Origin: Thermoanaerobaculia bacterium | Lineage (GTDB): Bacteria > Acidobacteriota > Thermoanaerobaculia > Gp7-AA8 | Length of the DNA: 60,237 nt | Assembly (NCBI GenBank): GCA_051305935.1 | Contig: JBPPMG010000108.1 | Location: forward strand, 1-60,237 | Reading direction: 5' to 3' | Shown here: one piece after another, positions 13,064 to 60,237 of the stretch | Layout of the letters: every line of letters begins with the position of its first letter | Position numbering within the stretch: position 1 is the first letter of the stretch | Position numbers and translations under genes: made by a program | Notes under the pieces: model-generated | Told to the model about the DNA's origin: nothing | What the model saw: only the letters and a program-made list of their open reading frames with translations | Database searches by the model: none

Positions 13064-13082
13064 GCGTGGGAGGAATCGATTC

Positions 13083-14808: not shown

Positions 14809-14819
14809 CCGAGGCAATC

Positions 14820-14933
14820 ATGAAGGTTCGTTCATCAGTCAAAAGAATTTGTCCCAAGTGCAAGCTCGTCCGCCGCGAGGGAGTCATTCGCATCATCTGC
14901 GAGATTCCCAAGCACAAACAGCGGCAGGGATAG
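14820..14933 (+). CDS. rpmJ: 50S ribosomal protein L36
   Basis: My own translation: [37 protein letters not shown] (37 aa). It falls below the track's size cut-off. Confidence 0.92.
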
Positions 14934-14978
14934 AGCCCTCGCACAGCGAAGGCATCGAGTCATAGCGGAGGATTTTTC

Positions 14979-15362
14979 GTGGCACGTATTTCTGGTATTG
15001 ACCTTCCCCTGAACAAGCGCGTGGAAATCGGCCTGACCTATATTTTCGGGATCGGGCGCACGCGGTCGAACAAGATCCTCGCGCAGGCAGCGGTGGATCC
15101 CAACACGCGCGTGAAAGACCTGACCGAAGACGACGTCCGCAAGATCCGCCAGGTCATTCAGGACCAGGGCGAGGTCGAAGGCGATCTCCGGAAGAATGTC
15201 GGACTCGACATCAAGCGGCTGGTCGAGATCGGCTGCTACCGCGGAGTCCGCCATCGCCGGGGCCTCCCGGTGCACGGCCAGCGCACGCACACGAACGCAC
15301 GCACGCGGAAGGGCCCCCGCAAGGGCGCCGTCGCGGGCAAGAAGAAGGCGACGAAGAAGTAA
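14979..15362 (+). CDS. rpsM: 30S ribosomal protein S13
   Basis: GTG start. [25 protein letters not shown]... Confidence 0.95.
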
Positions 15363-15390
15363 TTCGGGTTAGCACGAGGAACGAGAAGCT

Positions 15391-15807
15391 ATGGCAAAAC
15401 CAGCACCGAAGACCGGAACCGGCGCACGCCGCGCGGGCGGCAAGAAGAAGGAAAAGAAGAACGTCCCGCACGGGTTGGCGGCGATTTCCGCGTCCTTCAA
15501 CAACACGATCGTCGCGATCACCGACCCGGTGGGAAATCTCCTCTCGTGGTCGAGCGCGGGCCGGATCGGGTTCAAGGGATCGCGAAAGGGAACGCCCTTT
15601 GCCGCGCAGATGGCCGCGCAGAACGCGGCTCAGCTTGCGTCCGAGCACGGCGTCCGCTCCGTCGACGTCCGGGTCAAGGGACCTGGCGCCGGACGCGAGT
15701 CGGCGATCCGCGCGCTCGCGGCGAGCGGCATCGACATCAAGACGATCAAAGACGTCACCCCGATTCCGCACAACGGATGCCGGCCGCCGAAGCGCCGCCG
15801 CGTCTGA
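15391..15807 (+). CDS. rpsK: 30S ribosomal protein S11
   Basis: ...[18 protein letters not shown]...[16 protein letters not shown]. Confidence 0.95.
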
Positions 15808-15831
15808 CCTCTGCGAGAGATTGCTCACGGT

Positions 15832-15864
15832 GAGAGCCGCCGCGGCATGGCCGCGGTGACTCTC
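15832..15864 (+). promoter_or_regulatory. Long hairpin in the 153-nt rpsK-rpsD spacer (possible internal attenuator or S4 regulatory leader element)
   Basis: CCGCGGC-ATG-GCCGCGG core stem, extended by GAGAG/CTCTC. A TTTTT run lies about 15 nt downstream. Confidence 0.3.
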
Positions 15865-15960
15865 TCTCGTGCGCGCTTTTTCATTCAGTTGAATCAACGG
15901 TGAGTCGGTAGCTTCCGGCCACCACGGACCGACAGAAACGAACGATCAGGAGGAAGTAAA

Positions 15961-16587
15961 GTGGCTCGTTATACGGATCCCGTCTGCAGACTCTGCCGCC
16001 GCGAGGGGCTCAAGCTGTTCCTCAAGGGCGACCGGTGCTTCAAGGACAAGTGCGCGATCGAACGCCGCGCCTACGCCCCCGGCCAGCATGGCCGTCGCCG
16101 CTCCAAGGTTCTCGGCTACGGCCTGCAGCTCCGCGAGAAGCAGAAGGTCAAGCGGATTTACGGCCTGCTCGAGAAGCAGTTCCGTCTCTACTTCAAGCGT
16201 GCCGACCAGGCGCGCGGGGTCACCGGCGAGAACCTCCTCCGCCAGCTCGAGCTGCGACTCGACAACGTCGTCTATGCGCTCGGGTTTGCTGCATCTCGCG
16301 CCCAGGCGCGTCAGCTCGTCCGGCACGGCCACATCGAGGTCAACGGGCGCAAGCTCAACATCCCTTCGTACCAGGCTCGCAAGAACGACGCGATCCAGGT
16401 CCGCGAAAAGAGCCGCAAGAACGACCAGGTCCGTCTGGCGATCGAAACGGCCAGCGGACGTGGGATCCCTGCCTGGCTCGAGCTCCAGCCTGAGCAGTTC
16501 CGTGGCATGGTGCGTGATCTTCCGAAGCGCGAAGACATCCGCCTGCCGATCCAGGAACAGCTCATCGTCGAGCTCTACTCGAAGTAA
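15961..16587 (+). CDS. rpsD: 30S ribosomal protein S4
   Basis: GTG start. [25 protein letters not shown]... Confidence 0.95.
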
Positions 16588-16673
16588 CCGCCCGGAAAAC
16601 AGCTCTTCAGCTCGCCGGCACGTGGCCGGCGGACTGTGCGGGCCACCCAACGAATGTCGAGGAGGCCGTCCCT

Positions 16674-17669
16674 ATGTGGTCAGATTTTCAGAAACCCAAA
16701 AAGCTCGAGCATGACGTCGAGACCCTGACGCCGCACTACGGCAGGTTCGTCGCCCAGCCCTTCGAGCGCGGCTTTGGTACGACGATCGGCAATGCGCTGC
16801 GTCGCGTCCTGTTGTCGTCGATCGAAGGGGCCGCGGTCACCGCGGTCCGCGTCGAGAATGTGCTCCATGAGTTCTCATCCCTCCAGGGCGTCGTCGAAGA
16901 CATGACCGACGTCGTTCTCAATCTCAAGCAAATCCCCTTCCGCATTCACAGCCGCGGATCGAAGACCCTGTTCCTCGAGAAGAAGGGCCCCGGCATCGTC
17001 ACCGCCGCTGACATCCAGCGCGAGGCCGACGTCGAGATCCTCGACCCGAAAGCGCACATCGCGACCCTGTCCAAGGAAGGCTCGCTCAAGATGGAGATCC
17101 GCCTCAAGGTCGGACGCGGCTACGTCGCGGCCGATCGGAACGCCGATCCCGATCTGCCGCTCGGCTACATCCCGGTCGACTCGATCCACTCGCCCGTCCG
17201 TCGCGTGAACTATCACATCGAAGGCGCGCGCGTGGGCAACGTCACCGACTACGATCGTCTCGTGCTCGAGATCTGGACGAACGGCGCCGTCGCCCCGCAG
17301 GAAGCGCTCTCGCTCGCCTCGGGACTGATCGCCGATCACCTCTCGATCTTCAGCGAGTTCGAGACCTCGGTCCAGGAAGACGAGATCTCGGCCGAGCCGG
17401 ATGTCGATCCGAAGCTCATGGAGATGCTCTCGAAGCCGATCGAGGAGCTCGACCTCTCCGTCCGTTCGGCAAACTGCCTCAAGAATGCGAACATCCGCAC
17501 GCTCGGCGATCTCGTCCAGCGCTCGGAGCGCGAGATGCTCTCGACGAAGAACTTCGGCCGCAAGTCACTCGACGAGATCAAGGACGTGCTGAGCCAGCTC
17601 GGCCTGTCCTTCGGGATGTCGATTCGCGGCGGCGAGAAGCGCGGCGAGCCCGTTCACTCCGCGGAGTGA
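16674..17669 (+). CDS. rpoA: DNA-directed RNA polymerase subunit alpha
   Basis: 331 aa with an N-terminal assembly domain and the C-terminal motif ...[24 protein letters not shown]... Confidence 0.96.
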
Positions 17670-17704
17670 ACCGAGCCCGGCCCCACTGAGGAGAGGCGAG
17701 AACC

Positions 17705-18271
17705 ATGAGACACGGAATGACACACAATCGGCTTGGACGAAACAGCAGCCACCGCAAGGCGCTGTTCCGCAACCAGCTCGCTTCGCTCATCGAGAGCGAG
17801 CGCATCGTCACTACACTGGTCAAGGCGAAGGAACTTCGCCCAATCGCCGAGAAGTTCGTCACGCTCGGCAAGAAGGGCACCCTTCACGCGCGCCGCACCG
17901 CGGGCCGCGCCATCGCCAGCGACACGCTCCTGAAGAAGCTCTTCGAGGACATCGCTCCGCGCATGGCGGATCGCGCCGGCGGTTACACGAGGATCGTCAA
18001 GCTCGGACCCCGCCGCGGTGACGGCGCCGAAATGGCAATCCTCGAATTCGTCGACTTCAAGTTCGAGGTGAAGCTGCCCGAAACGCCTGCGAGCAGGAAG
18101 GCGGCGGCGGCGAAGAAGGCGAAGGAAGCGGAGCCCGCCTCCGAGGCGAAAGCCGAAAAGGCGGAGAAGAAGCCGGCGAAGAAGAAGGCTGCACCAAAGA
18201 AAGACGCCGGTGAGGCCGCGGACAAGAAGAAAGCAGCTCCGAAGAAAGCCGCGAAGAAGAAGGCAGAGTAA
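17705..18271 (+). CDS. rplQ: 50S ribosomal protein L17 with a long Lys/Ala/Pro/Glu-rich tail
   Basis: MRHGMTHNRLGRNSSHRKAL... core, then about 65 aa of AAKKAKEAEP...KKAAKKKAE. Confidence 0.94.
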   Translation: MRHGMTHNRLGRNSSHRKALFRNQLASLIESERIVTTLVKAKELRPIAEKFVTLGKKGTLHARRTAGRAIASDTLLKKLFEDIAPRMADRAGGYTRIVKLGPRRGDGAEMAILEFVDFKFEVKLPETPASRKAAAAKKAKEAEPASEAKAEKAEKKPAKKKAAPKKDAGEAADKKKAAPKKAAKKKAE

Positions 18272-44952: not shown

Positions 44953-45063
44953 GCCGCTGACGCGGCGGAGTGACCCGCGAGGAAGTCTACGGGCGGGTTC
45001 GCTTTACGCGTCCCTGGCTCAGCGCAGCTCGGCCGACATGACGGCGCGAACGCTTGTTCATTG

Positions 45064-45129
45064 GAAGCGAAGCGAGGAATCTGCGAAAGGATCGATTTTA
45101 ATCGTTTTGCAGATTCCTCGCTTCGCTCG
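45064..45129. terminator. Long hairpin (19-bp perfect stem, AT-rich 24-nt loop) between convergent PFK and GH57 genes
   Basis: AGCGAAGCGAGGAATCTGC (45066-45084) pairs with GCAGATTCCTCGCTTCGCT (45109-45127). The loop holds a CGATT/AATCG mini-stem. Confidence 0.55.
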
Positions 45130-45155
45130 GAATGACGGCGTTCGCCGCCTCGCGC

Positions 45156-50281: not shown

Positions 50282-52669
50282 ATGGCCAAGGACAAAGGCA
50301 GGAAGAAGAACTCGAAAGAATCGAAGCGCGAGCAGTTGCTCGACCGGGAGATCGCGATCCCCGAGGCAGAAGCTGCAGAGTCGGACTCGGCGCTCGCCCC
50401 GCCCGACGCGCAGCCGGACACCGCCGCGAAGGCTGAGCCCGAGCTCAAGGTCACGCTCGGAAGCATGGATCCAGCCGCGGCCGCCGAACTTCACGCGCTC
50501 GAGGCGACGCTGCCTTCCGTGAAGGTGACCTCGAAGCTCGCGAAGCGGAAGGCAGTCGCAAAAACGAAGTCCGAATCGAAGAAGATCGCAACGCCAGTTA
50601 GAAAACCAGCAGCCGTGAATGCGAAGAAGAAGGCGACCGCAAAAGTGCAGATGAATGTCGAAGCGCCTCCGCTCGAGCTCGAAGAGCAGGACATCTACTT
50701 TTTCCACGAAGGGACGCACCGGCGGCTTCACGAAAAGCTCGGCGCGCACACCACGAAGAAGGACGGCGTTCCAGGTGTCCGGTTCGCCGTCTGGGCGCCG
50801 AACGCGCGCGAGGTCTCGGTCGTAGGGGATTTCAACGACTGGAACGGGGCGAGCCACCCGCTCTTGCCGCACGGATCGTCCGGTATCTGGGAAGGTTTCA
50901 TCCCCGGGATCGGCAAGGGCTACGTTTACAAGTACCACGTGGTCTCCGGGCATCGCGACTACACGAGCGACCGCGCCGATCCATTCGGGTTCATGCACGA
51001 AAACCCGCCCGACACCGCCTCGGTCGTCTGGGACCTCGACTACCAGTGGAACGACGCCGAGTGGATGGCGAGGCGCGCCGAGGCGGAGCCGCTCAACGAG
51101 CCGATGTCGATCTACGAGATCCATCTCGGATCGTGGCGGCGCGTTCCGGAGGAAGGCGAGCGGTTCCTGACCTACCGCGAGCTGGCCGAGACACTTCCGG
51201 CTTACCTGAACACGATGGGCTTCACGCACGTCGAAATGATGCCGGTGATGGAGCATCCGTTCTACGGCTCGTGGGGCTACCAGGCGACCGGTTTCTTCGC
51301 GGCGACGAGCCGCTTCGGAACTCCGCAGGACCTGATGTATCTCATCGACCGACTGCACCAGGCAGGGATCGGAGTGATCCTCGACTGGGTGCCGTCGCAC
51401 TTCCCGACGGACGGGCACGCGCTGGCCTACTTCGACGGCACGCACCTGTTCGAGCCGTCCGATCCGCGCCGCGGCTTCCATCCCGACTGGAAGAGCATGA
51501 TCTTCGACTACGGCCGGCCCGAGGTCTGCTCGTTCCTGACGAGCAGCGCGATCCACTGGCTCGAGAACTTCCACGCCGACGTTCTGCGCGTCGACGCGGT
51601 GGCGTCGATGCTCTATCTCGACTACTCGCGTCCCGCGGGGCAGTGGATCCCCAACAAGTACGGCGGCCGTGAGTACCTCGAGGCGATCGCGTTTCTCCGG
51701 AAACTGAACGAAGCGGTCTACGCCGAGATCCCCGGCGCGCAGACGATCGCCGAGGAATCGACGGCGTGGCCGCACGTGTCGAAGCCGACTTACGTCGGCG
51801 GGCTCGGATTCGGCTTCAAGTGGGACATGGGCTGGATGCACGACACGCTCAAGTACATGGCGGAAGACCCGATCGCCCGCAAGTACCACCACAGCAAGCT
51901 GACCTTCAGGCAGATCTACGCGACGAGCGAGAACTTCGTGCTTTCGCTCTCGCACGACGAGGTCGTGCACATGAAGGGCTCGCTCCTCGGCAAGATGCCG
52001 GGCGACAAATGGAAGAAGCTCGCGAACCTGCGGCTGCTCTACTCGTGGATGTACGCACAGACGGGCAAGAAGCTGCTCTTCATGGGGAGCGAGATCGCGC
52101 AGTCGCGCGAGTGGAACCACGACGAGAGCCTCGACTGGCATCTGCTCGAGGATCCGGGTCACGCCGGCGTGCAGCGGTTCGTACAGGATCTCAACGCGCT
52201 CTACCGCGCGCAGCCCGCGCTCTGGGAGCTCGATACGCTTCCGCAGGGTTTCGAGTGGATCGACTGCAACGACTGGGAACAGAGCATCGTGGCGGTGCTG
52301 CGCCGCGGGGAGACGCAGGGCGAGGAGATCATCGCGGTGCTCAACTTCACGCCGGTCGTCCGCTACGACTACCGGGTCGGCGCGCCGCGTGCCGGAACCT
52401 GGAGCGAGATCCTCAACAGCGACGCCGACACCTACGGCGGCAGCGGCATCGGGAACATGGGGTCGGTCGTCGCGGTCGAGCAGGCGCACCACGGGCGGCC
52501 CGCGTCGATGAGCGTGACGCTTCCGCCTCTCGGCGCCGTGTTCTTCCGAAATTTCGAGCCGATGCCGGACGATGAGCGAGGCCCGTTCGGGCCCTCGTCG
52601 GAAGGCGGGTCGGATCCTTCGGCGAGGCCGGCGAAGAAAGCGGCGAAGAAGCCCACGAAGAGAAAGTAG
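50282..52669 (+). CDS. glgB: 1,4-alpha-glucan branching enzyme with Lys-rich N- and C-terminal extensions
   Basis: GH13 core: ...VRFAVWAPNA...GVILDWVPSHF...LRVDAVASMLY...IAEESTAW...LSHDEV... The conserved core begins near the ATG at 50651. The upstream 123 codons look coding. Confidence 0.9.
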   Translation: MAKDKGRKKNSKESKREQLLDREIAIPEAEAAESDSALAPPDAQPDTAAKAEPELKVTLGSMDPAAAAELHALEATLPSVKVTSKLAKRKAVAKTKSESKKIATPVRKPAAVNAKKKATAKVQMNVEAPPLELEEQDIYFFHEGTHRRLHEKLGAHTTKKDGVPGVRFAVWAPNAREVSVVGDFNDWNGASHPLLPHGSSGIWEGFIPGIGKGYVYKYHVVSGHRDYTSDRADPFGFMHENPPDTASVVWDLDYQWNDAEWMARRAEAEPLNEPMSIYEIHLGSWRRVPEEGERFLTYRELAETLPAYLNTMGFTHVEMMPVMEHPFYGSWGYQATGFFAATSRFGTPQDLMYLIDRLHQAGIGVILDWVPSHFPTDGHALAYFDGTHLFEPSDPRRGFHPDWKSMIFDYGRPEVCSFLTSSAIHWLENFHADVLRVDAVASMLYLDYSRPAGQWIPNKYGGREYLEAIAFLRKLNEAVYAEIPGAQTIAEESTAWPHVSKPTYVGGLGFGFKWDMGWMHDTLKYMAEDPIARKYHHSKLTFRQIYATSENFVLSLSHDEVVHMKGSLLGKMPGDKWKKLANLRLLYSWMYAQTGKKLLFMGSEIAQSREWNHDESLDWHLLEDPGHAGVQRFVQDLNALYRAQPALWELDTLPQGFEWIDCNDWEQSIVAVLRRGETQGEEIIAVLNFTPVVRYDYRVGAPRAGTWSEILNSDADTYGGSGIGNMGSVVAVEQAHHGRPASMSVTLPPLGAVFFRNFEPMPDDERGPFGPSSEGGSDPSARPAKKAAKKPTKRK

Positions 52670-52697
52670 GAGGCGACACGTGAAGGGAGAGCTCGTG

Positions 52698-53168
52698 ATG
52701 GCAGTCGACGCCGGGAACTTCAAGAAGGCGATGAGCCGCTGGGCGAGCGGAATCACCGTGGTGACCGCGGAGCACAACGGCGTGCGCCACGGAATGACGG
52801 TGAGCTCGTTCGCTTCCGTATCGCTCGACCCGCCGCTCGTACTGATCTGTATCGGCAAGGCGGCGCCGACACATGACACGATCAGGAAAGGGGAACGATT
52901 CGTGGTCAACGTTCTCGCCGACTCCCAGGAAGAGATCTCGATGCGCTTCGCGACGAAGCACGACGACCGATTCGCGGGAGTCGCGGTGCACACCGGCCAG
53001 CTCGGTGTGCCGATCATCGAAGGCTGCCTCGCGGCGATCGAGTGCAGGCTGCACGCGACGTTGCCGGGCGGCGACCACACGATCTATGTCGGCGAGGTGG
53101 TTCACGCCGACATTGCCGAAGGCTCGCCGCTGCTCTACTTTCAGGGCGGCCATCGGAAGATGGGGTAG
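52698..53168 (+). CDS. Flavin reductase-like (FMN-binding split-barrel) protein
   Basis: MAVDAGNFKKAMSRWASGITVVTAEHNGVRHGMTVSSFASVSLDPPLVLICI... I chose the ATG at 52698 inside track ORF 52572-53168. Confidence 0.85.
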   Translation: MAVDAGNFKKAMSRWASGITVVTAEHNGVRHGMTVSSFASVSLDPPLVLICIGKAAPTHDTIRKGERFVVNVLADSQEEISMRFATKHDDRFAGVAVHTGQLGVPIIEGCLAAIECRLHATLPGGDHTIYVGEVVHADIAEGSPLLYFQGGHRKMG

Positions 53169-53299
53169 CGCAAAGAGTTAGGCTCTCCCCAGCTCCACCG
53201 GTTCTACCTAATGTAGAAATTTTGACATCGCGCCGTAACCGAGGGAACCTCGGTGGATGAGGGAGATGACGTTCGCGCCGCGAGTTCCGGATCAACGCC

Positions 53300-53356
53300 C
53301 CGTGTTACACGGAACCGCGATTCGTCCCAACACCGACCCCGACCTGTGTTACACAG
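53300..53356. promoter_or_regulatory. Pair of 13-bp palindromes CYGTGTTACACRG (putative operator pair)
   Basis: CCGTGTTACACGG (53300-53312) and CTGTGTTACACAG (53344-53356). Centres are 44 bp apart, about 150-200 bp upstream of the first cassette ORF. Confidence 0.45.
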
Positions 53357-53506
53357 AACACGGTAGCGGCCGCGAAGCATGAGAAACTGCCAGAAGTCAT
53401 GAGACACGAATCACATCGTGCGAAGTCCCACCGGCGGGCCGTTCCGCAAAGGGTCGCGACTCTTAGTCCGGATAATCGGGTTGGTGAGTTAGCCGCCTAG
53501 AGAGAC

Positions 53507-54817
53507 ATGATGTCCGCCGAAAACGAGGCACAACCACCGGAAGAGCCCAAACCCAAACCACCGGGACCGCGAAAGCACTTTTCTCACGCACTGGAACGCT
53601 TTGTCACAAATGTGGATAGTCTCGCGACAACGTTGCCGCTGGCGATGTCAGCAATCCAGGCTGCACAGAAGGCGTCAGGCGAAACGCTAAAGCAGTTCAT
53701 CGACCAATACGCGACTACCGAGGAGCGCGGACGCGAACTATTGGTTAAGGTGGCCCCGGACCATTGGCTGCGGTTCAACAAGTTGTCGGGACGTCGCCGG
53801 AAGTTCGCGATGGCCTCCCGCACGGTGCCCAGCAGTTATCTTGTGTCGCTCGTCAGCCAGTTCGACGCCTTCATCGGCGACCTCATTCGCGCGCTATTCG
53901 CAGCCAAGCCAGACACGCTGAACGTGTCGGAGAAGGCGCTCACGTTTAGCCAGCTCGCGGAATTCAAGACCATCGATGAAGCACGTGACTTCATCCTGGA
54001 AAAGGAAATCGAGGGTGTCCTCCGAAAGAGCCATCAGGAGCAATTCGAGTGGCTTGAGGGAAGATTTGGATTGCCCCTGCGGAAGGGTCTAGATTCGTGG
54101 CCCCGCTTCATCGAGCTAACCGAGAGACGAAATCTTCTCGTCCACACGGGTGGCGTGGTTTCGTCGCAGTACCTGCAAGTATGTAAGGCCGCCGGTGTCG
54201 CTCTGGAGAAGGACGCGGCGGTCGGGAAAACTCTGAAAGTGTCGCGTGGATATTTTGATGCGGCGTATGAGATCACATTCGAGATAGCAGTCAAACTCGC
54301 CCACGTTCTCTGGCGCAAGGTTCTTCCCGAGGAGCGAAGAGATGCCGACGAGAATCTCAGCAGAATTTGCTACGAACTGCTTGAGGACGCGCGTTACAAA
54401 CTCGCGCGTGAACTCCTCGACTTCGCCACCTGCGTCCTGAAGCAGCACTCGACCGACGAGGTGCGACGGCGGCTCGTCGTAAATCACGCCCAGGCCTACA
54501 AATGGTTGGGCAATCTGGAGAAAGCCCTCGAAATCATGTCGGGGGAGGATTGGACAGCTACCTCCGACATGTTCAAGCTCGCGGACGCCGTGATTCGCGA
54601 CGACTTCGAGCTGGCGGCGAAGTTCATGGAGCGCATCGGTAAGTCGACAGAGCGTACCGAATATCGCGACTGGCCGTTGTTCATGGAGTTCCGCAAGACT
54701 GATGTCTTCCTAAGAACGTACGAGCAGGTCTTCGGCGAAGCTTTCACCGTGTTTCCTGCCGACGACCAGAGAATTTCAGCCTCACCGGGTCAAGGCGGTG
54801 ACGAAGGCAGCGGCTAA
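53507..54817 (+). CDS. Cassette 1: HEPN-motif (RNxxxH) protein with a C-terminal TPR-like helical region, unknown function
   Basis: 436 aa, all-helical by eye. ...FIELTERRNLLVHTGGV... matches the Rx4-6H HEPN motif. The TAA stop lies inside the RYYYAAC-like box of attC-like site 1. Confidence 0.8.
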   Translation: MMSAENEAQPPEEPKPKPPGPRKHFSHALERFVTNVDSLATTLPLAMSAIQAAQKASGETLKQFIDQYATTEERGRELLVKVAPDHWLRFNKLSGRRRKFAMASRTVPSSYLVSLVSQFDAFIGDLIRALFAAKPDTLNVSEKALTFSQLAEFKTIDEARDFILEKEIEGVLRKSHQEQFEWLEGRFGLPLRKGLDSWPRFIELTERRNLLVHTGGVVSSQYLQVCKAAGVALEKDAAVGKTLKVSRGYFDAAYEITFEIAVKLAHVLWRKVLPEERRDADENLSRICYELLEDARYKLARELLDFATCVLKQHSTDEVRRRLVVNHAQAYKWLGNLEKALEIMSGEDWTATSDMFKLADAVIRDDFELAAKFMERIGKSTERTEYRDWPLFMEFRKTDVFLRTYEQVFGEAFTVFPADDQRISASPGQGGDEGSG

Positions 54818-54912
54818 CTCAGCTCAAGCGGATTTCAACGCGCCACTCAAAGTTTGGTAGGCTGTTGAAGTGGCGTCGGCGCATTGAAACCGCTTAAAGC
54901 GAGGCGTTAGGC
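54812..54912 (+). repeat. attC-like site 1
   Basis: GGCTAAC ... GCGGATTTCAACGCGCC / GGCGCATTGAAACCGC ... GTTAGGC. The next ATG lies 15 nt downstream. Confidence 0.6.
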
Positions 54913-54927
54913 CGCTGAAGATCGACC

Positions 54928-55650
54928 ATGCAAGCATCTGCGAACCTACGTACTACACAGGCCGTTCTCGTGACGGCGGAGGACGTTTCGTCCTTGTCCC
55001 GAGCAATCGCGAAACACCTTCCACCTCTCACGGCCGAAGCTGAATGCACCGACGGTCTGACACGGCGGTTTCAAACCGTCGAAGAACTAGTGGAATACGA
55101 CAACTCGCCGTCGCGCGCAGTAGAATCGCTAACGCTCGAGAGTAGATCCGTGGATTACAACACCTCGCTCTCGTTGAGCCTTGAATCGACTGTCATTTCG
55201 AATATCCGTTATTCAGTGCGTGGCGAAGAGGAAGTCGTGCTGGCCCTCAAGTCGGCACTTGAGGGATTCCTCTCCGCGACTCGACCCTCATATTGGTTGT
55301 TTTGTAAGCTCAGCGTCTCGATGGTTTCGGCCACTCTCCTGGCGCTCGTTCTAATCAGCATTGTCGTGCGAAACTTCACGGAATTGGTGAGCCCACTCGG
55401 CAAGACTCCCGGATGGTCCGGTGTTGGGCTTGTCGTTGTAATCATGGTCACAGCCTCCACCATCATGCCGCTACTGCTGCAGAGCTGGACCGATCGACTT
55501 CGAAAGTATCTCTTTCCCACGTCCCACTTTGCATGGCAGCAGGGGGCGAAGCGCGCCAAGCATCTCTCGTTCGTCCGGAGTGTCGTGCTCCTGGGCTTCA
55601 CTGTCGGTGTTTTCGCTAGTCTGGTCGCGACATGGCTGGCGCGAGCATGA
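54928..55650 (+). CDS. Cassette 2: hypothetical protein with an N-terminal soluble domain and three C-terminal TM segments
   Basis: 240 aa. Hydrophobic segments: LSVSMVSATLLALVLISIVV, GVGLVVVIMVTASTIMPLLL, VVLLGFTVGVFASLVATWL. I recognise no family. Confidence 0.7.
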   Translation: MQASANLRTTQAVLVTAEDVSSLSRAIAKHLPPLTAEAECTDGLTRRFQTVEELVEYDNSPSRAVESLTLESRSVDYNTSLSLSLESTVISNIRYSVRGEEEVVLALKSALEGFLSATRPSYWLFCKLSVSMVSATLLALVLISIVVRNFTELVSPLGKTPGWSGVGLVVVIMVTASTIMPLLLQSWTDRLRKYLFPTSHFAWQQGAKRAKHLSFVRSVVLLGFTVGVFASLVATWLARA

Positions 55651-55666
55651 CGCAGGACGGATCGCG

Positions 55667-55770
55667 GTCTAACTCGTCGTTGCTGCGGATTTCAACGCGC
55701 CGCTCAAACGTTTGGCAACCTGTGCGTGCTCCGCGGGCGCGTTGAAACCGCTCAGCAGTAACCGTTAGGC
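55667..55770 (+). repeat. attC-like site 2
   Basis: GTCTAAC (perfect RYYYAAC) ... GCGGATTTCAACGCGCC / GGCGCGTTGAAACCGC ... GTTAGGC (perfect GTTRRRY). Confidence 0.65.
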
Positions 55771-55924
55771 GGCGTTGCTCCGTGACCTTCGACGATGTCA
55801 TAGCCGTTGGGCCACCGAAGCCCATGACGTCGCGTTCCAGTTTCTTCGCGAAACCTCGAAAACAAGCGCCTCGCTGGCTCGATCGCGGGTTCCACTGTTG
55901 GGTGCACCTTTGATGTGAGACTTG

Positions 55925-56965
55925 CTAAGCTGACGTGGCGAGTACTGCGGCATCCTTGCCGCGCTCCGGCCATCCTGCTAGCTCGAGCTGCCGATATCGC
56001 TCGACGGACTGTTCGCCTAAAGCGCTTAACAGGCCCTTCGCTACGCCTTCGACGACGGGGACGACAACAGAGTTCCCGAACTGTTTGTACGCCTGCGTGT
56101 CCGATACGACGATCCGAAAGTTATCTGGGTAGCCCATCAGGCGCGCACACTCTCGCGGGGTTAGGCGCCGTGGGTTCTTGCCGCGCTGAGAGATTAGGAT
56201 TTCGGATCCGTCCTTGTAGTAACGCGCGCTGAGTGTCCGAGTCGTGCCACCAGGATCGGCTAGCCCGAAGCCGAAACCGTTGCCGGCTTCCTGGTGTTTG
56301 CGGGCATAAGCCTGCAAGTACTCCCACAGCTTGTCACTCAAGGTGTACTTTGGGTCGACTCTTCGTTCCAAGATGTCGCGAAGTATCGGAGGTTTCCGCC
56401 TCGGCCGGGGCTGAGGCCAGTGCATATCGTGCGACTCACGAAACCCGACGATGAAGATCCGTTCGCGATGCTGCGGTACGAAATGCTGGGCGTCGATGAT
56501 TCTGTAGTGGACGTCGTAACCAAGTTCTTGCGTCAACGTCTGCAGGATCACTTCGAATGTCCGGCCTCCATCATGAGAGCGGAGGTTTCGGACGTTCTCC
56601 AGGATGAACGCCTGAGGGCGGTGAGCGTGGATGATTCTGACTATCTCGAAGAACAGCGTGCCCTGAGTTCGGTCAGCGAAGCCGTGAGGACGCCCCAAGC
56701 TATTCTTCTTCGACACGCCGGAGATCGAGAAGGGCTGGCAGGGAAATCCGGCGGTGAGAATGTCGTGCTCCGGGATATCAGCTGCCGTGACGGCGCGGAT
56801 ATCACCAACCGGCTCGTCGCCGAAATTCGCCTGATAGGTTTGCCTGGCAAACCGATCCCAGTCCGACGAAAATACACAGCGCCCCCCCAGGCGATCGAAG
56901 GCGAGGCGAAACCCCCCGATGCCAGAGAATAGGTCGATGAAGCGAAATTTGTCGCGCTCAAGCAT
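55925..56965 (-). CDS. dcm: Cassette 3: DNA (cytosine-5)-methyltransferase
   Basis: Motifs FSGIGG (I), GFPCQPFS (IV), ENV (VI), QHRERIF (VIII), GNSVVVPV (X). Confidence 0.93.
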
Positions 56966-57053
56966 GTCTCTGAGCAGAATACCTCGGAGTTCCGCGAAAT
57001 CCCAGGGCTGATTCGATCATCCGCTAAACTCTACTCACGGTAGAATTTGGCCC

Positions 57054-57467
57054 GTGGTCGACGTCCTTTCCCCGGCACAGCGCCGGAAGAACATGCAGAG
57101 AATCCGCTCCAAGGATACCGAGCCGGAGTTGCGCGTTCGCCGGCTGATTCACTCTCTCGGCTACCGTTTCCGATTGCACGGAAAAGGGCTTCCCGGGCGA
57201 CCCGACTTAGTCTTTCGAAGTCGGCAAAAGGTCATCTTCGTCCATGGTTGCTACTGGCACGTGCATCAATGTCCCCTCGGAAGGGTATGCCCGGCGACGA
57301 ACGCCGAATTTTGGCGTGAGAAGCGGAAATCGAATGTGACACGCGATGACCGAAACCTCTCCGCACTCCAAGAATGCGGATGGTCGGCACTCGTGATCTG
57401 GCAATGTCAGCTGTCGGATTCAACGGAGTTGGAGAATCGGATCCGCGAATTCCTGGAGGCACGATAG
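57054..57467 (+). CDS. vsr: Cassette 3: very-short-patch repair endonuclease
   Basis: GTG start. ...SKDTEPELRVRR...GRPDLVFRSRQKVIFVHGCYWHVH... Vsr hallmarks. Confidence 0.92.
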   Translation: MVDVLSPAQRRKNMQRIRSKDTEPELRVRRLIHSLGYRFRLHGKGLPGRPDLVFRSRQKVIFVHGCYWHVHQCPLGRVCPATNAEFWREKRKSNVTRDDRNLSALQECGWSALVIWQCQLSDSTELENRIREFLEAR

Positions 57468-58685
57468 GTGGCAATCTCGCTTGCATCCCTTTTCGCCGCC
57501 GTTGCTGATAAGACCCTGGCCCTCGTAGACCTACCAGAGGTCGGCTCGCATCAACACGAACTCAACGGCTCTTCTCATCTGCGTGACTTCTTTGGCACGG
57601 ACGAGACGGTACGCGGCGAAGTTCGCTGGCACTACTTTGCCGAGGATCAGCCACCGCTACACGATACCGGCTCATTCACCTTCTATGACTCGCGTGCCAA
57701 GAGTGCCGATCGAACTGGACGCTCCGAGTGGAGGATGTACTACACGGGAGATTTCCTGTCCGTTGCGTCGCCCGGCGATCTGCTGGTTCTCGCCCGCACG
57801 CTCCTCGGCGAGGTTCACGCGCTGGTTGTCCAAACTCAATCGAGTTGGGCCCGCGCGGTCGGCACGCTGTTCGGACTCGATTCAGGCACTCCACACTTTC
57901 GAATCTCCGCCAGTGACGAACTCGATCAAAAGACGTTCGAGTTTGTTTCCTCGCGAATCGTCGAGGAGCTCGAGCTGGATTTCGAACCACCGAGCGCCCC
58001 GGACTACGAGTCAATCGCTGCCCGCGAACTAGGGCGGGCCCGGAACGAAGGAAGGGATTTTCCAACGACAAGACGAATGGGTGATGTGTCGCGGGAGACC
58101 GTGATGACGGATACGGGCGACGTCGACGCCACGTTGTTGAGGTGGCTCGAGACCGAGGAGCGGATATTTCGTGCGATGGAACGTGAAATCGTCGAAGTAA
58201 AACTGCGGGCAGGATTCGCTTCCGTGGACGAATTCATCTCTTACTCACTTTCGGTTCAGAACCGCCGGAAGAGTCGCATGGGGCTAGCCCTTCAGAACCA
58301 CCTGGCAGAGCTCTTTCGGATTCATCGTGTACGCTTCTCAGCTCAGGCGTTCACGGAGAATCGAAAGAAGCCAGATTTTCTGTTCCCCGGAGCAGCGGAG
58401 TACCACGACCCGACTTTTGACTCAGCGCGGCTCACGATGTTGGCCGCCAAGTCAACATGCAAGGACCGCTGGCCGCAGGTTTTGACTGAGGCATCAAGAA
58501 TCCAAGAAAAGCATCTCTGCACAATCGAGCCCGCTATATCCGAGTCCCAGACTGATGAAATGCAGCGCCAAGGAGTGATCCTCGTGATTCCAGAGGGCCT
58601 GCAAAGGACGTTCTCAGCGAAACAGTGCAAGGGCCTACTGAGTCTCTCCGGCTTCGTCGATCTGGTTCGAGCCCGCGATGCCTGA
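57468..58685 (+). CDS. Cassette 3: type II restriction endonuclease with an EcoRII-C-like catalytic domain
   Basis: 405 aa. The GTG start immediately follows the vsr stop. C-terminal half: ...GFASVDEFISYSLSVQNRRKSRMG...NRKKPDFLFPG...LAAKSTCKDRWPQVL... This matches my recollection of the EcoRII catalytic domain, and the dcm+vsr context fits. Confidence 0.7.
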   Translation: MAISLASLFAAVADKTLALVDLPEVGSHQHELNGSSHLRDFFGTDETVRGEVRWHYFAEDQPPLHDTGSFTFYDSRAKSADRTGRSEWRMYYTGDFLSVASPGDLLVLARTLLGEVHALVVQTQSSWARAVGTLFGLDSGTPHFRISASDELDQKTFEFVSSRIVEELELDFEPPSAPDYESIAARELGRARNEGRDFPTTRRMGDVSRETVMTDTGDVDATLLRWLETEERIFRAMEREIVEVKLRAGFASVDEFISYSLSVQNRRKSRMGLALQNHLAELFRIHRVRFSAQAFTENRKKPDFLFPGAAEYHDPTFDSARLTMLAAKSTCKDRWPQVLTEASRIQEKHLCTIEPAISESQTDEMQRQGVILVIPEGLQRTFSAKQCKGLLSLSGFVDLVRARDA

Positions 58686-58727
58686 AACGTGAGGGATACG
58701 TCGAGAGGCGCGCAGTCGCGCCGTCCA

Positions 58728-58831
58728 GGCTAGCTTTTCGCTTCGGCCCATTGCTACGCGCTGGGCAGAGTGTTGGTAACTTGTTTGGGCAGCGCGGGCG
58801 CGTAGCAGCCGCTGGGTTCGGTACGTTAGGG
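58728..58831 (+). repeat. attC-like site 3 (most degenerate copy)
   Basis: GGCTAGC ... TTGCTACGCGC / GCGCGTAGCAG ... GTTAGGG. Same length class and position (3' of the ORF block) as the other sites. Confidence 0.45.
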
Positions 58832-58876
58832 CGCCCGGGGATCGGCGAAGCGGGCGATCCTTGTTATGATGGTCGC

Positions 58877-59524
58877 ATGAGCATCGACATGTTCATTCCC
58901 GTCTCTCTGGCCGTTATCACGGTTGCGATCGGGTATCTCGGAGTCCATCTCACGCTACATCCGTTACCCGTCGAGGACCCGGCGCTTCGAAGGGCGCAGA
59001 TGCGGTACAAGGTGTCCTTCGTCGTTCTTTCGCTCGTCGGCGTTGCGCTGATCGGTTGGCAGGCCGCCAGAAGCCAGGTTACTCCGTCGGTATGGCATCG
59101 ACCAATCACGGCTGAAGAGTCGAAGGCCTTCGTGACGACTCTAAGTCGGGAACCCCACTCACCGAGCGTGCGCATAGGCTGTGCGGCCAACGACGAGGCG
59201 GCTTGCGTGCTGGCATCCCAGTTGATCGTGCAATTTCAAACGGCTGGGTGGAAGGTTGAGAAGCTACCGGCGGAGAGACTAATGCTTCCTCGAGCTCTCC
59301 TGGGTGTGGCCGTGTTCGCGCACGGTACCGGTGTTGCGGATCCCTCGAACTCCCGGTCCGGTCTTTGGGTAGCTCACACGCCCACGCTCACGACCCTTAG
59401 CGACGCATTGAGGGAACTTGGCATCAACGCACAGGTCACAGCGGACGCCGCCATGCCAGATGGAGTCTTCGGAATTTACTGCGGCCCGGACCCCGGCCCG
59501 AGAACGCCGTATTACGCGGAATGA
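58877..59524 (+). CDS. Cassette 4: hypothetical membrane protein (two N-terminal TM segments plus a soluble domain)
   Basis: MSIDMFIPVSLAVITVAIGYLGVHL... I chose the ATG at 58877 because the upstream part of track ORF 58625-59524 runs through attC-like site 3. Confidence 0.6.
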   Translation: MSIDMFIPVSLAVITVAIGYLGVHLTLHPLPVEDPALRRAQMRYKVSFVVLSLVGVALIGWQAARSQVTPSVWHRPITAEESKAFVTTLSREPHSPSVRIGCAANDEAACVLASQLIVQFQTAGWKVEKLPAERLMLPRALLGVAVFAHGTGVADPSNSRSGLWVAHTPTLTTLSDALRELGINAQVTADAAMPDGVFGIYCGPDPGPRTPYYAE

Positions 59525-59552
59525 GTTTGCTTGTTGTTCGTCCGAAACTGCG

Positions 59553-59655
59553 GCCTAACGATGGCATGCACCGGGCCAAAACGCGCAACTCAAAGTTTCG
59601 AAGGCTGGTATGATAGCGCGTGCGCGTTTTGGCCGGTGAGCGCATGCGGTTCGGC
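59553..59655 (+). repeat. attC-like site 4
   Basis: GCCTAAC (perfect RYYYAAC) ... GCATGCACCGGGCCAAAACGCGCA / TGCGCGTTTTGGCCGGTGAGCGCATGC ... GTTCGGC. Confidence 0.55.
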
Positions 59656-59739
59656 GGTTCGGAAACGTGTGCCATGCCGACGACACCCGTGGACAGAACT
59701 AGCGGTACTGCCTAGGCTGACTCTCGAAATGGGGATGTA

Positions 59740-60222
59740 ATGAGCACTCGCTATCGCGAACTTGCGGGCGTTGCCGCAAAGGTGCATCTCTCGCTAATTC
59801 TAACTTCGGCTGCCCTTCTTGCCGCGCACACCACAATCGCACCGCGGAGTATTGACAAGGCGCTGCTCGAGCTTCAGTCCATACGTGACGTCATGACGCG
59901 GGTGGCAACGCATGACTTCCAGCCAGACGTACAGGTCTGGTTGGATCACGCCACCCCCAGCAAGCTGGCCGGGCGCTGGAGCTTCGCGTGGCAGTGGGAG
60001 GCGAACGGGATTTACGTCGGGCAGCGCTTCTCTTATGACGGAAGACCCTTTCTGGTAACGCTGGCCGGGTCCGGTACTCCAGTGGCGGTACGTTTCCCAG
60101 GCGCACCTGTCGGCGATCTCCCTAAAATCCCCCCATCCGATCACCTAATTTTCCCCCCTCTCGACAGCGGCAACCCGGAGAGGGGGATTCCATGCAGAAC
60201 GAGGTTGAATCCGACATCCTGA
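59740..60222 (+). CDS. Cassette 5: hypothetical protein with an N-terminal hydrophobic segment
   Basis: 160 aa. GGGGA RBS 7 nt upstream. ...VHLSLILTSAALLAAHTTIA... I recognise no family. Confidence 0.55.
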   Translation: MSTRYRELAGVAAKVHLSLILTSAALLAAHTTIAPRSIDKALLELQSIRDVMTRVATHDFQPDVQVWLDHATPSKLAGRWSFAWQWEANGIYVGQRFSYDGRPFLVTLAGSGTPVAVRFPGAPVGDLPKIPPSDHLIFPPLDSGNPERGIPCRTRLNPTS

Positions 60223-60237
60223 TCGCGACGGCAGACA

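What the first reader, a model, noticed from the sequence alone, without database searches (positions are those of the whole stretch)
54812..59655. Array of four ~100-bp attC-like recombination sites: an integrase-less integron cassette array (CALIN-type) next to core metabolism genes
Imperfect palindromes of 101-104 bp sit just 3' of successive ORF blocks, all in the same orientation: 54812-54912, 55667-55770, 58728-58831 and 59553-59655. Each begins with an RYYYAAC-type box (GGCTAAC, GTCTAAC, GGCTAGC, GCCTAAC). Each ends with the inverse GTTRRRY-type box (GTTAGGC, GTTAGGC, GTTAGGG, GTTCGGC). The inner arms pair with conserved bulges: GCGGATTTCAACGCGCC versus GGCGCRTTGAAACCGC leaves one unpaired base in both site 1 and site 2. 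In site 1 the ORF's TAA stop lies inside the RYYYAAC box, and the next ATG is 15 nt after GTTAGGC. That tight, promoterless packing is expected of gene cassettes. With this orientation, intI/attI should lie to the left, but glgB and a flavin reductase are there instead. The array runs off the right end of the window.
Basis: partly seen in the sequence, partly recalled or inferred. Interest (0 to 1): 0.8.

Follow-up and report, generated by a model that had tools for sequence, protein, structure and literature searches.

The report
Decayed integron cassette array, integrase deleted
The four 100-bp palindromes are genuine integron attC recombination sites: this is the tail of a chromosomal integron in an uncultured Thermoanaerobaculia bacterium that has lost its integrase gene, which is a known kind of element, not a new one.

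Summary
Two covariance models score them at 59-103 bits, and nothing else in the 60-kb contig exceeds 18 bits.

They are attC sites. About 120 sites of the same family occur in metagenomic and MAG contigs as dense same-strand arrays (median spacing 591 bp). The family shows the canonical attC layout: 7-nt R box, 5-nt spacer, bulges at positions 16 and 23 separated by a 6-bp stem. 97% of stem positions pair, with heavy compensatory change. The TTRRRY of each site matches the next site's R'' in 82 of 93 junctions, so crossover is at G|TT. In Thermoanaerobaculia MAG locus L116 the family lies directly behind an intact, co-directional integron integrase gene and its attI.

The window has no integrase. 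Its 320-bp head (53169-53488) keeps the conserved element and start codon that precede intI in L116 and L114. It also holds a core site, GTTAGCC (53488), that matches attC1 perfectly. Close relatives lack the whole element. The three junctions between cassettes are all mismatched (P about 0.002), which suggests erosion.

Verdict: a CALIN-type integron remnant, a new member of a known kind, of modest interest.

The parts
52680..53168 (+). Flavin reductase gene. It is the last conserved chromosomal gene before the element and is context only. The start may be GTG 52680; the mechanical ORF starts at 52572.
   Evidence: Pfam Flavin_Reduct, E 7.5e-49. NCBIfam HpaC-like. Homology with relatives L002 and L003 ends at 53166-53169.
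53169..53488 (+). Head of the element: a relic of the integron platform with intI deleted, followed by an attI-like region.
   Evidence: Absent from relatives L002 and L003. It contains the conserved intI-upstream element and the core site listed below. No integrase-like coding sequence remains.
53204..53254 (+). Conserved intI-upstream element: CTAC-N5-GTAGA, TTGACA, then the palindrome CCGAGGGAACCTCGG.
   Evidence: It aligns with the sequence immediately upstream of the intact intI start in L116, of the intI pseudogene in L114, and of the array head in L105.
53257..53382 (+). 41-codon ORF whose ATG aligns with the intI start codon of L116 and L114. It is probably a meaningless relic left by deletion of intI.
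   Evidence: Alignment A5. ORF list. No similarity to integrases beyond the first few codons.
53296..53359 (+). Two direct repeats 44 bp apart, each an internal palindrome (CCGTGTTACACGG and CTGTGTTACACAG). They may be integrase-binding or regulatory repeats of attI. Unproven.
   Evidence: Repeat family D4. A TGTTAC motif also occurs in the attI regions of L110, L114 and L116. The resemblance to the attI1 direct repeats is from memory only.
53488..53494 (+). GTTAGCC core site. Likely the attI crossover point and the 5' boundary of cassette 1 (G|TTAGCC).
   Evidence: It is the exact complement of the R'' of attC1 (GGCTAAC) and lies 13 nt before the ATG at 53507. The rule that TTRRRY matches the next R'' holds in 82 of 93 junctions in reference arrays, including attI to the first attC in L116.
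53489..54906 (+). Cassette 1: a 436-aa protein of unknown function (ORF 53507-54817).
   Evidence: No Pfam or NCBIfam family. At least 990 homologues. The 66%-identical homologue P0002 is the first gene after an intI relic in L110.
54812..54912 (+). attC site 1
   Evidence: 103.3 bits (model R1) and 86.1 bits (model R2). Bottom-strand fold z -3.4.
54907..55764 (+). Cassette 2: a 240-aa protein of unknown function with a hydrophobic C-terminal half (ORF 54928-55650).
   Evidence: ORF list and translation. No family hits.
55667..55770 (+). attC site 2
   Evidence: 100 bits (R1) and 83.5 bits (R2). Fold z -3.2.
55765..58825 (+). Cassette 3 (3.06 kb, three genes): an EcoRII-like type II restriction-modification system. 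It comprises a C5 cytosine methyltransferase (55925-56965, minus strand), a Vsr mismatch endonuclease (57054-57467) and an EcoRII-C endonuclease (57468-58685).
   Evidence: Pfam DNA_methylase 4.7e-92, Vsr 1.9e-31, EcoRII-C 5.1e-65. PADLOC MTase_II, Vsr and REase_II. No attC inside the cassette.
58728..58831 (+). attC site 3, the most degenerate. Its R'' is GGCTAGC and the 6-bp stem has two mispairs.
   Evidence: 94.5 bits (R1) but only 58.6 bits with R2. Fold z -0.9.
58826..59649 (+). Cassette 4: a 215-aa protein of unknown function (ORF 58877-59524).
   Evidence: ORF list and translation. Only a sub-threshold NnrU hit.
59553..59655 (+). attC site 4
   Evidence: 101 bits (R1) and 87.1 bits (R2). 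Fold z -3.4.
59650..60237 (+). Cassette 5, cut by the end of the contig. It holds the mechanical ORF 59740-60222 and a 77-nt repeated element at 60108-60184.
   Evidence: ORF list. The window is the whole contig. The 77-nt segment is 97% identical to L099:491-567, in the opposite orientation.

Best explanation
The region from 53169 to the contig end is the remnant of a chromosomal integron of the type found in Thermoanaerobaculia. That type is laid out as intI, then attI, then cassettes, all on one strand.

How the system works. This is established integron biology, inferred here and not assayed. Each cassette is a promoterless unit that ends in an attC site. The bottom strand of attC folds into a hairpin with an R box, an unpaired spacer, an L box and extrahelical bases. 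The integron integrase binds this hairpin and cuts between G and TT of the 3' core, so cassettes can be excised as circles and inserted at attI.

What happened in this genome. The integrase gene has been deleted. What is left is:
- its upstream element and start codon (53204-53259);
- an attI-like stretch ending in GTTAGCC (53488);
- at least five cassettes, namely three single genes of unknown function, one three-gene EcoRII-like restriction-modification system and one cassette cut by the contig end.

Without an integrase next to it, the array is now a static block that IntegronFinder's classification would call a CALIN. Its core sites have begun to drift. Cassettes could move again only if an integrase encoded elsewhere in the genome acted on them.

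Shown: site identity, family structure, crossover position, linkage of the family to intI, absence of intI on this contig, absence of the element in relatives.
Inferred: the deletion history, present inactivity, and how the cassettes are expressed.
For: 1. Sites. Only the four sites in 60 kb match the models: R1 94-103 bits and R2 59-87 bits.

2. Family. A metagenome pattern scan gave 28 loci, 26 of which hold CM-confirmed sites. These hold 99 same-strand sites with a median spacing of 591 bp. The longest ORF in a cassette is co-oriented with the array in 60 of 75 cassettes, and its stop often lies inside R''.

3. Structure. Across 95 sites, 97.4% of cells are paired, against 27-37% in slid controls. 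15 of 23 pairs show compensatory change. The column census gives R'' at 1-7, a 5-nt spacer, a bulge at position 16, a 6-bp stem, a bulge at position 23 (bottom-strand T in 94 of 95), and a 3' spacer of 6-7 nt. This matches the published attC geometry (PMC5027507).

4. Crossover. The TTRRRY of site n matches the R'' of site n+1 perfectly in 64 of 72 junctions. The mean is 0.18 mismatches, against 0.97 for a site's own R'' and 0.96 +/- 0.04 for random pairing. L114 gives 11 of 13 and L116 gives 7 of 8 including attI.

5. Cassette mobility. A 288-bp cassette is 97% identical in two arrays whose flanks are only 54% and 43% identical. The homology begins at about G|TTAGGC and ends at G|TTAG.

6. 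Link to the integrase.
- L116: an intact 329-aa 'integron integrase [Thermoanaerobaculia bacterium]' on the + strand, then an attI core GTTAGGC, then 8 family attC sites.
- L114: an intI pseudogene 59-70% identical to IntI1, including the WVFP...DPRSG...RRHH stretch I take to be integron-specific, followed by 13-14 family sites.
- L110 and L115: intI C-terminal relics with family sites downstream.

7. Relic. The element at 53204-53254 and the ATG at 53257 align with the region just upstream of intI and with its start codon in L116 and L114. GTTAGCC at 53488 is the exact complement of the R'' of attC1.

8. No integrase. tblastn with IntI1 and XerD gave no hit with E below 0.2. An HMM of integrase C-termini found nothing in the six-frame translation, while the controls scored 128, 74 and 61 bits.

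9. Acquired block. GC falls from about 64% to 57-59% at about 54 kb. Relatives L002 and L003 go from the flavin reductase straight to a convergent gene and moaA.

10. Erosion. All three junctions between cassettes in the window are mismatched, against 88% perfect in reference arrays (P about 0.002). Each site departs from the family consensus at the L box, the spacer or a bulge.
Against: - The IntegronFinder attC model and the intI_Cterm profile could not be run. My models derive from the window's own sites. R2 was trained on sites that R1 had found, so it is not fully independent.
- The head shares only about 50 nt plus the start codon with reference platforms. Its attI-like part has no detectable homology to the attI of L116 or L114, so the attI assignment rests mainly on the single GTTAGCC match.
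- L105 carries the same upstream element in front of a non-integrase small ORF, so the element is not strictly tied to intI.
- The right end of the array lies off the contig, and the rest of the MAG was not available. An integrase may exist elsewhere in the genome.
- The base at bulge position 16 differs from the usual one. It is bottom-strand C in about 80% of family sites, where a G is usual.
- 'Erosion' rests on three junctions and on qualitative departures from the consensus.
Confidence: 0.85

Rival explanations
1. The array never had a platform here. Cassettes were inserted by an integrase acting in trans at a secondary genomic ('attG', 5'-GWT-3') site just after the flavin reductase stop codon, and further cassettes were then added.
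For: - GTTAGGC lies at 53177-53183, 8 nt after the stop codon.
- Relatives lack the array, and homology ends at the stop codon.
- Insertion at genomic GWT sites has been demonstrated and proposed as a source of small CALINs and single-attC SALINs (bioRxiv 10.1101/2022.09.11.507474).
Against: - The 320-bp head carries the element and start codon that precede intI in L116 and L114. A bare cassette insertion would not bring these in.
- GTTAGGC at 53177 mismatches the R'' of attC1, whereas GTTAGCC at 53488 matches it perfectly and sits at the usual 13 nt from the ATG.
- No attC-like site lies between 53177 and 53488.
Confidence: 0.08
2. This is still a functional integron. The integrase lies off this contig, either beyond the right end after a rearrangement or elsewhere in the genome. 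It keeps the array active, and the mismatched cores are normal variation.
For: - The contig ends inside cassette 5.
- About half of CALINs lie in genomes that encode IntI (PMC4889954).
- Full-length integron integrases exist in Thermoanaerobaculia MAGs.
Against: - In every reference locus of this family, intI lies immediately upstream of the array and on the same strand (L110, L114, L115, L116). In the window that position holds a 230-bp relic.
- Junction complementarity is 0 of 3 between cassettes, against 88% in reference arrays.
- Whether the genome encodes IntI elsewhere could not be tested.
Confidence: 0.05
3. The palindromes are ordinary intergenic repeats (REP/BIME-like or MITE-like) or transcription terminators between genes, unrelated to integrons.
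For: They are about 100-bp imperfect palindromes located just after ORFs. No Rfam family matches.
Against: - There are no copies in the other 53 kb of the contig or in 1.32 Mb of control loci.
- The sites are strictly co-oriented and spaced one ORF apart.
- The bulges are conserved and asymmetric, at positions 16 and 23.
- Core hexamers pair with the next site, not with their own site.
- The family is physically linked to intI.
- No T-tract terminators were found in the array.
Confidence: 0.02

Closest known systems
CALIN (cluster of attC sites lacking an integron integrase), as defined by IntegronFinder (Cury et al. 2016, PMC4889954)
   Same: Four attC sites on one strand, less than 4 kb apart (spacings 855, 3061 and 825 bp). 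No integrase is detectable within 53 kb to the left. The cassettes mostly encode proteins of unknown function.
   Different: Most CALINs (95%) have no recognisable intI pseudogene nearby. This one also has no integrase-coding remnant, but it keeps the non-coding upstream element and start codon of intI plus an attI-like core. Profile searches for intI pseudogenes would miss such a relic. The right side cannot be checked.
Complete chromosomal integrons of Thermoanaerobaculia, e.g. L116 (GCA_054337595.1, contig JBTESY010000093.1; integrase P0241)
   Same: The same attC family (41-74 bits with model R2), the same conserved element upstream of the intI start, cassettes on the same strand as that element, and a GTTAGSC core 13-17 nt before the first cassette ATG.
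   Different: L116 has an intact 329-aa intI and perfectly complementary junctions (7 of 8). The window has no intI, and only its head junction is perfect (1 of 4). The attI-like sequences are not alignable, and the chromosomal location differs (ClpB/Vgb_lyase against glgB/flavin reductase).
Canonical attC sites of mobile integrons and Vibrio cholerae repeats (Nivina et al. 2016, PMC5027507)
   Same: RYYYAAC and GTTRRRY boxes, an unpaired spacer of 5 nt (5' arm) and 6-7 nt (3' arm), extrahelical bases at positions 16 and 23 separated by a 6-bp stem, a conserved bottom-strand T at position 23, a variable terminal loop, and conservation of structure more than of sequence.
   Different: The base at position 16 is bottom-strand C in about 80% of family sites, where G is usual. 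The sites are long (101-105 nt) and alike in sequence, as in sedentary chromosomal integrons. The integrase of this family is co-directional with the cassettes, unlike class 1, where it is divergent (class 1 arrangement from my own knowledge).
Taxon-specific attC types, including an Acidobacteria model (Ghaly et al. 2021, PMC8352920)
   Same: A chromosomal attC family with conserved sequence and structure, found in a member of the Acidobacteriota.
   Different: I could not obtain that model, so I do not know whether it covers this family.
Cassette insertion at genomic attG sites, giving SALIN elements (bioRxiv 10.1101/2022.09.11.507474)
   Same: Cassettes lie next to core genes with no integrase. 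A GTT-containing core lies close to the junction.
   Different: The head carries sequence from the integron platform, which an attG insertion would not bring in.

Membership tests
attC recombination site | 5' RYYYAAC (R'') and 3' GTTRRRY (R') boxes with the conserved AAC/GTT triplets | tested here: met
   Sites 1 and 2 fit fully. Site 3 has R'' GGCTAGC and R' GTTAGGG. Site 4 has R' GTTCGGC, a variant also seen in the intact L116 array. Across 98 family sites, GCCTAAC and GTTAGGC dominate.
attC recombination site | Imperfect hairpin with an R box, an unpaired central spacer of 5-6 nt, an L box and a variable terminal structure, conserved in structure more than in sequence | tested here: met
   97.4% of cells paired against 27-37% in slid controls. 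15 of 23 pairs have compensatory changes. The spacer is 5 nt on the 5' arm and 6-7 nt on the 3' arm, and the loop is about 33 nt. The window sites fold this way, but site 1 has a 3-nt spacer.
attC recombination site | Extrahelical bases on the R''/L'' arm at position 16 and position 23/24, separated by a 6-bp stem, with a conserved bottom-strand T at the distal one (PMC5027507) | tested here: met
   The family has bulges at positions 16 and 23 with a 6-bp stem between them. Position 23 is bottom-strand T in 94 of 95 sites. Position 16 is bottom-strand C in 76 and G in 19, which departs from the usual G. In the window, the position-23 bulge is kept in all four sites (T, T, T, C). The position-16 bulge is altered in sites 1, 2 and 4.
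attC recombination site | Crossover between G and TT of R', so that the TTRRRY after each site belongs to the next cassette | tested here: met
   In the family, 82 of 93 junctions are perfectly complementary to the next R'', against random-level matching to a site's own R''. A shared 288-bp cassette is bounded at about G|TT. In the window only the head junction is perfect (1 of 4).
attC recombination site | Hit to the IntegronFinder attC covariance model | not testable with these tools
   The model is not available here, and Rfam has no matching family.
attC recombination site | Recombined by an integron integrase as a folded bottom strand | not testable with these tools
   This needs a recombination assay.
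Complete integron | An intI gene (a tyrosine recombinase with the integron-specific extra domain) adjacent to the array | tested here: not met
   tblastn with IntI1 and XerD gave no hit with E below 0.2. An integrase C-terminus HMM found nothing in the six-frame translation of the whole contig, while the controls scored 128, 74 and 61 bits.
Complete integron | An attI site ending in GTTRRRY at the head of the array | tested here: inconclusive
   GTTAGCC at 53488 matches the R'' of attC1 and is correctly spaced from the ATG. TGTTAC-containing repeats lie upstream. There is no sequence homology to the attI of L116 or L114.
CALIN | At least two attC sites on the same strand, less than 4 kb apart | tested here: met
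   Four sites on the + strand with spacings of 855, 3061 and 825 bp. The criterion is from PMC4889954.
CALIN | No integron integrase in the neighbourhood of the cluster | tested here: inconclusive
   Met for the 53 kb to the left. The right side is beyond the contig end.
REP / MITE-type dispersed repeat | Many dispersed copies in ordinary intergenic regions, in either orientation | tested here: not met
   No further copies in the window or in 1.32 Mb of control loci. Elsewhere the element occurs only in co-oriented tandem arrays.

The most novel reading that the evidence does not exclude
Thermoanaerobaculia integrons may be a distinct and themselves mobile lineage. Their features are:
- a co-directional intI;
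- a conserved palindromic element at the intI start, possibly a regulatory operator;
- attC sites with bottom-strand C instead of G at extrahelical position 16.

The platform sits at a different chromosomal locus in each genome examined. In two of four cases a GTTRRRY core lies at the left junction, next to the stop codon of a housekeeping gene. In the window, the relic intI promoter and start codon may now point into the array and drive the cassettes, including the restriction-modification system.
Probability: 0.15. Interest if true: 0.5.

Novelty: new member of a known kind. Interest (0 to 1): 0.3.

Why it matters
- It adds a documented integron remnant and a large, homogeneous attC family (about 120 sites gathered here) for Thermoanaerobaculia, an uncultured acidobacterial class.
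- It shows that an apparently integrase-less array can still carry a non-coding platform relic (the intI upstream element, its start codon and an attI-like core). Profile searches for intI pseudogenes would miss this. That bears on the open question of where CALINs come from: here, integrase deletion is favoured over insertion at a secondary site.
- It gives another case of a complete restriction-modification defence system carried as a multi-gene cassette.
- None of this changes how integrons are understood.

Tried and rejected
- Rfam, at gathering and E-value thresholds: no family matches.
- Exact-protein look-ups of window proteins, to extend the contig: these found only a 1.6-kb Logan contig carrying the same Dcm and Vsr genes. 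The window turned out to be the whole contig.
- Looking for intI on the short metagenomic array contigs: none found. The large ORF next to an attC in L082 is an IS30-like transposase, and the one in L094 is a PDZ protein.
- GTTAGGC at 53177 as the left cassette boundary: rejected in favour of GTTAGCC at 53488. The first mismatches the R'' of attC1; the second matches it perfectly and sits 13 nt from the ATG.
- Site 4's R' (GTTCGGC) as a defect: rejected. That hexamer belongs to the next cassette, and the same variant occurs in the intact L116 array.
- Contexts of other homologues of the 436-aa protein (L111-L113): isolated genes with no family attC, so uninformative.
- Sigma-70 promoter and terminator scan of the array: nothing above the shuffled expectation.
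- RNA folds of the 77-nt repeat and of the head element: not significant.
- Querying the protein database with the short intI relic: it returned only short fragments. A query with the L114 pseudo-IntI was needed to reach full-length integrases.
- Cluster member lists: they did not show whether the window's own MAG encodes an integrase.

Full report
**1. The observation**

- 54812-54912
- 55667-55770
- 58728-58831
- 59553-59655

Each begins with an RYYYAAC-like box and ends with a GTTRRRY-like box. The stop codon of ORF 53507-54817 lies inside the first box, and the next ATG is 15 nt after GTTAGGC.

Folded as single-stranded DNA, the bottom strands of sites 1, 2 and 4 form hairpins with outer-box pairing, an internal unpaired spacer, a long stem and one bulge on the 3' arm (z about -3.3). 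Site 3 folds poorly (z -0.9).

Aligned, the four sites support 23 base pairs, 8 of them with compensatory changes. A covariance model built from them (R1) finds only these four in the window with filters off (94-103 bits; next best 17.9 bits). It finds nothing in 1.32 Mb of control DNA from 80 other genomes.

**2. Genomic setting**

The window is a complete 60,237-bp contig of a Thermoanaerobaculia (Acidobacteriota) MAG. To the left lie glgB (50282-52669) and a flavin reductase gene ending at 53168. GC content falls from about 64% to 57-59% over the array.

The two closest genomes available have glgB proteins 94% (L002) and 79% (L003) identical to the window's. Their DNA is homologous to the window up to the flavin reductase stop codon and no further. 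In both, the flavin reductase is followed by a hairpin, a convergent gene and moaA, with no cassettes. The element is therefore a lineage-specific block.

**3. The same element elsewhere**

One metagenome scan with a pattern from the conserved inner stem and loop returned 28 contigs. R1 found 99 strong sites on 26 of them. Within each contig the sites always share one strand, and the median spacing is 591 bp. Examples are 9 sites in 5.6 kb (L090) and 8 sites in 4.2 kb (L100).

The longest ORF between neighbouring sites is co-oriented with the sites in 60 of 75 cassettes. ORFs typically fill the interval, and the stop codon often lies inside the R'' box.

**4. Structure**

Across 95 family sites, 97.4% of cells form standard pairs, against 27-37% when the partners are slid. 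15 of 23 pairs show changes on both sides.

The column census shows the following layout:
- a 7-nt R'' box;
- a 5-nt spacer;
- three further covarying pairs;
- a bulged base at position 16;
- a 6-bp stem;
- a bulged base at position 23 (A on the top strand, hence T on the bottom strand, in 94 of 95 sites);
- a 12-bp stem and a loop of about 33 nt;
- a 3' spacer of 6-7 nt, then R'.

This matches the published geometry of attC sites: extrahelical bases at position 16 and at 23/24, a 6-bp stem between them, a conserved distal T, and a spacer of 5-6 nt (PMC5027507). The one departure is the base at position 16. It is C on the bottom strand in about 80% of sites, where G is usual.

**5. Crossover point and cassette mobility**

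If cassettes recombine between G and TT of R', the TTRRRY after each site belongs to the next cassette. It should then pair with the next site's R'' and not with its own.

- In the metagenomic arrays this holds perfectly in 64 of 72 junctions. The mean is 0.18 mismatches, against 0.97 for a site's own R'' and 0.96 +/- 0.04 for random pairing.
- Of 30 junctions with a non-majority hexamer, 27 match the next site and 3 match their own.
- L114 gives 11 of 13. L116 gives 7 of 8, including the junction from attI to the first attC.
- A 288-bp cassette is 97% identical in two different arrays (L090 and L100), whose flanks are only 54% and 43% identical. The homology begins at about G|TTAGGC and ends at G|TTAG.

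**6. Link to an integron integrase**

Following a homologue of the cassette-1 protein led to L110. There a 73-codon ORF just upstream ends in [30 protein letters not shown], an IntI-type C-terminus, and family attC sites lie downstream.

Relatives of that fragment led to two more loci:
- L114 has an intI pseudogene that matches IntI1 residues 15-90 (59% identity) and 226-330 (69.5% identity), with residues 91-225 deleted. It is followed on the same strand by 13-14 family attC sites.
- L115 has a C-terminal relic and one family site.

Querying with the L114 pseudo-protein gave full-length 'integron integrase [Thermoanaerobaculia bacterium]' proteins.

One of these, P0241, lies on contig L116 of a Thermoanaerobaculia MAG. 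The order there, all on the + strand, is:
- intact intI (329 aa, 10001-10990);
- an attI core GTTAGGC at 11147;
- 8 family attC sites from 11581 to 18252.

So this attC family belongs to integrons in which intI is co-directional with the cassettes. A model built only from the metagenomic sites (R2) scores the window sites 87.1, 86.1, 83.5 and 58.6 bits, and nothing else in the window exceeds 15 bits.

**7. What lies between the flavin reductase gene and cassette 1**

No tyrosine recombinase is detectable anywhere on the contig.
The typed IntI1 is validated by its 59-70% identity hits in L114.
- An HMM built from 120 integrase C-terminal fragments found nothing in the six-frame translation. It scored the controls at 128 bits (IntI1), 74 bits (the L110 relic) and 61 bits (XerD).

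The 320-bp head is nevertheless not anonymous. Positions 53204-53254 (CTAC-N5-GTAGA, TTGACA, CCGAGGGAACCTCGG) and the ATG at 53257 align with three other sequences: the stretch immediately upstream of the intact intI in L116 together with its start codon, the same stretch at the intI pseudogene in L114, and the head of array L105.

Further on, GTTAGCC at 53488-53494 is the exact complement of the R'' of attC1 (GGCTAAC). It lies 13 nt before the cassette-1 ATG, the spacing seen at other junctions. I take it as the attI crossover point.

Two palindromic direct repeats containing TGTTAC (53296-53359) recall the TGTTAC motifs in the attI regions of L110, L114 and L116. Apart from those motifs, the attI-like part of the head does not align with them.

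The simplest reading is that intI has been deleted, leaving its upstream element, its start codon and attI.

**8. State of the array**

The head junction is perfect, but the three junctions between cassettes carry 1, 2 and 1 mismatches. In reference arrays 88% of junctions are perfect, so P is about 0.002.

Each window site also departs from the family consensus at a functionally relevant point:
- site 1 has a 3-nt spacer and a 1x2 internal loop;
- site 2 has lost the position-16 bulge;
- site 3 has AGC in R'' and two mispairs;
- site 4 has C instead of T at position 23.

This fits drift after loss of the integrase, but the sample is small.

**9. Cassette content**

- Cassette 1 encodes a 436-aa protein from a large family with no known domain (at least 990 homologues).
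- Cassettes 2, 4 and 5 encode proteins of unknown function.
- Cassette 3 (3.06 kb) is a complete EcoRII-like type II restriction-modification system: a C5 methyltransferase on the opposite strand, Vsr, and an EcoRII-C endonuclease.

**10. Comparison with what is known, and verdict**

The element meets the operational definition of a CALIN: at least two attC sites on one strand, less than 4 kb apart, with no integrase nearby (PMC4889954). attC types specific to Acidobacteria have already been modelled (PMC8352920).

The alternative origin, insertion of cassettes at a secondary genomic 'attG' site (bioRxiv 10.1101/2022.09.11.507474), is disfavoured by the platform relic. A dispersed-repeat explanation is contradicted on every test.

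The finding is a new member of a known kind and deserves modest interest.

**11. Limits**

- The IntegronFinder models were not available.
- The array runs off the contig.
- The rest of the MAG could not be searched for an integrase.
- No function has been tested.

Noticed in passing
window 60108-60184: A 77-nt segment is 97% identical to L099:491-567, but in the opposite orientation relative to the attC sites. The flanks are unrelated. It lies 53 nt from the contig end, inside the mechanical ORF 59740-60222. It may be the end of a repeated or mobile element that broke the assembly. Its folds are not significant.
   Followed up: partly
window 53507-54817 (cassette 1 protein, P0001): The 436-aa protein belongs to a large family (at least 990 homologues at 45-66% identity) with no Pfam or NCBIfam domain. 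Its only hit is a weak PADLOC HEPN-like one (E 0.0025). A homologue is the first gene after an intI relic in L110. Others are isolated accessory genes in Acidobacteria genomes, with variable neighbours.
   Followed up: partly
window 53177-53183; L116 9707-9713: A GTTRRRY core lies at the left junction in both loci. In the window, GTTAGGC is 8 nt after the flavin reductase stop codon. In L116, GTTAGGG overlaps the stop codon of the Vgb_lyase gene, followed by a Clp C-terminal fragment. L114 and L105 lack such a core, so this may be coincidence or a junction signature.
   Followed up: partly
window 53296-53315 and 53340-53359: Two direct repeats 44 bp apart are each an internal palindrome, and a compensatory change keeps the second one palindromic (CCGTGTTACACGG and CTGTGTTACACAG). 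The head of L105 instead has three ATCTG-N4-CAGAT palindromes before its GTTAGGC core. Both look like operator-type sites of unknown function.
   Followed up: partly
L116, L114, L110, L105 and the window: Integrons of this attC family sit at a different chromosomal locus in each contig: ClpB/Vgb_lyase, sigma-70 genes, nuoF, a membrane-protein gene, and glgB/flavin reductase. Three of the five integrase loci seen carry truncated or internally deleted intI.
   Followed up: no
L082 792-1859: An IS30-like transposase (HTH_38 plus rve domains) lies 21 nt from a family attC site.
   Followed up: no
L105 about 1290-1440 (minus strand); L114 about 8640-8760: Long, near-perfect inverted repeats (about 32-bp arms) lie just upstream of the conserved intI-upstream element. 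The L114 repeat gives weak covariance-model hits on both strands.
   Followed up: no
window 45045-45146: A locally low-GC (0.52) stretch gives weak hits (11-12 bits) to both attC models on both strands, which suggests an unrelated intergenic palindrome.
   Followed up: no
L001 (Logan SRR22508407): A 1.6-kb contig from an independent sequencing run encodes an identical Dcm methyltransferase next to a Vsr gene, so the same or a very similar restriction-modification cassette is present in another sample.
   Followed up: no
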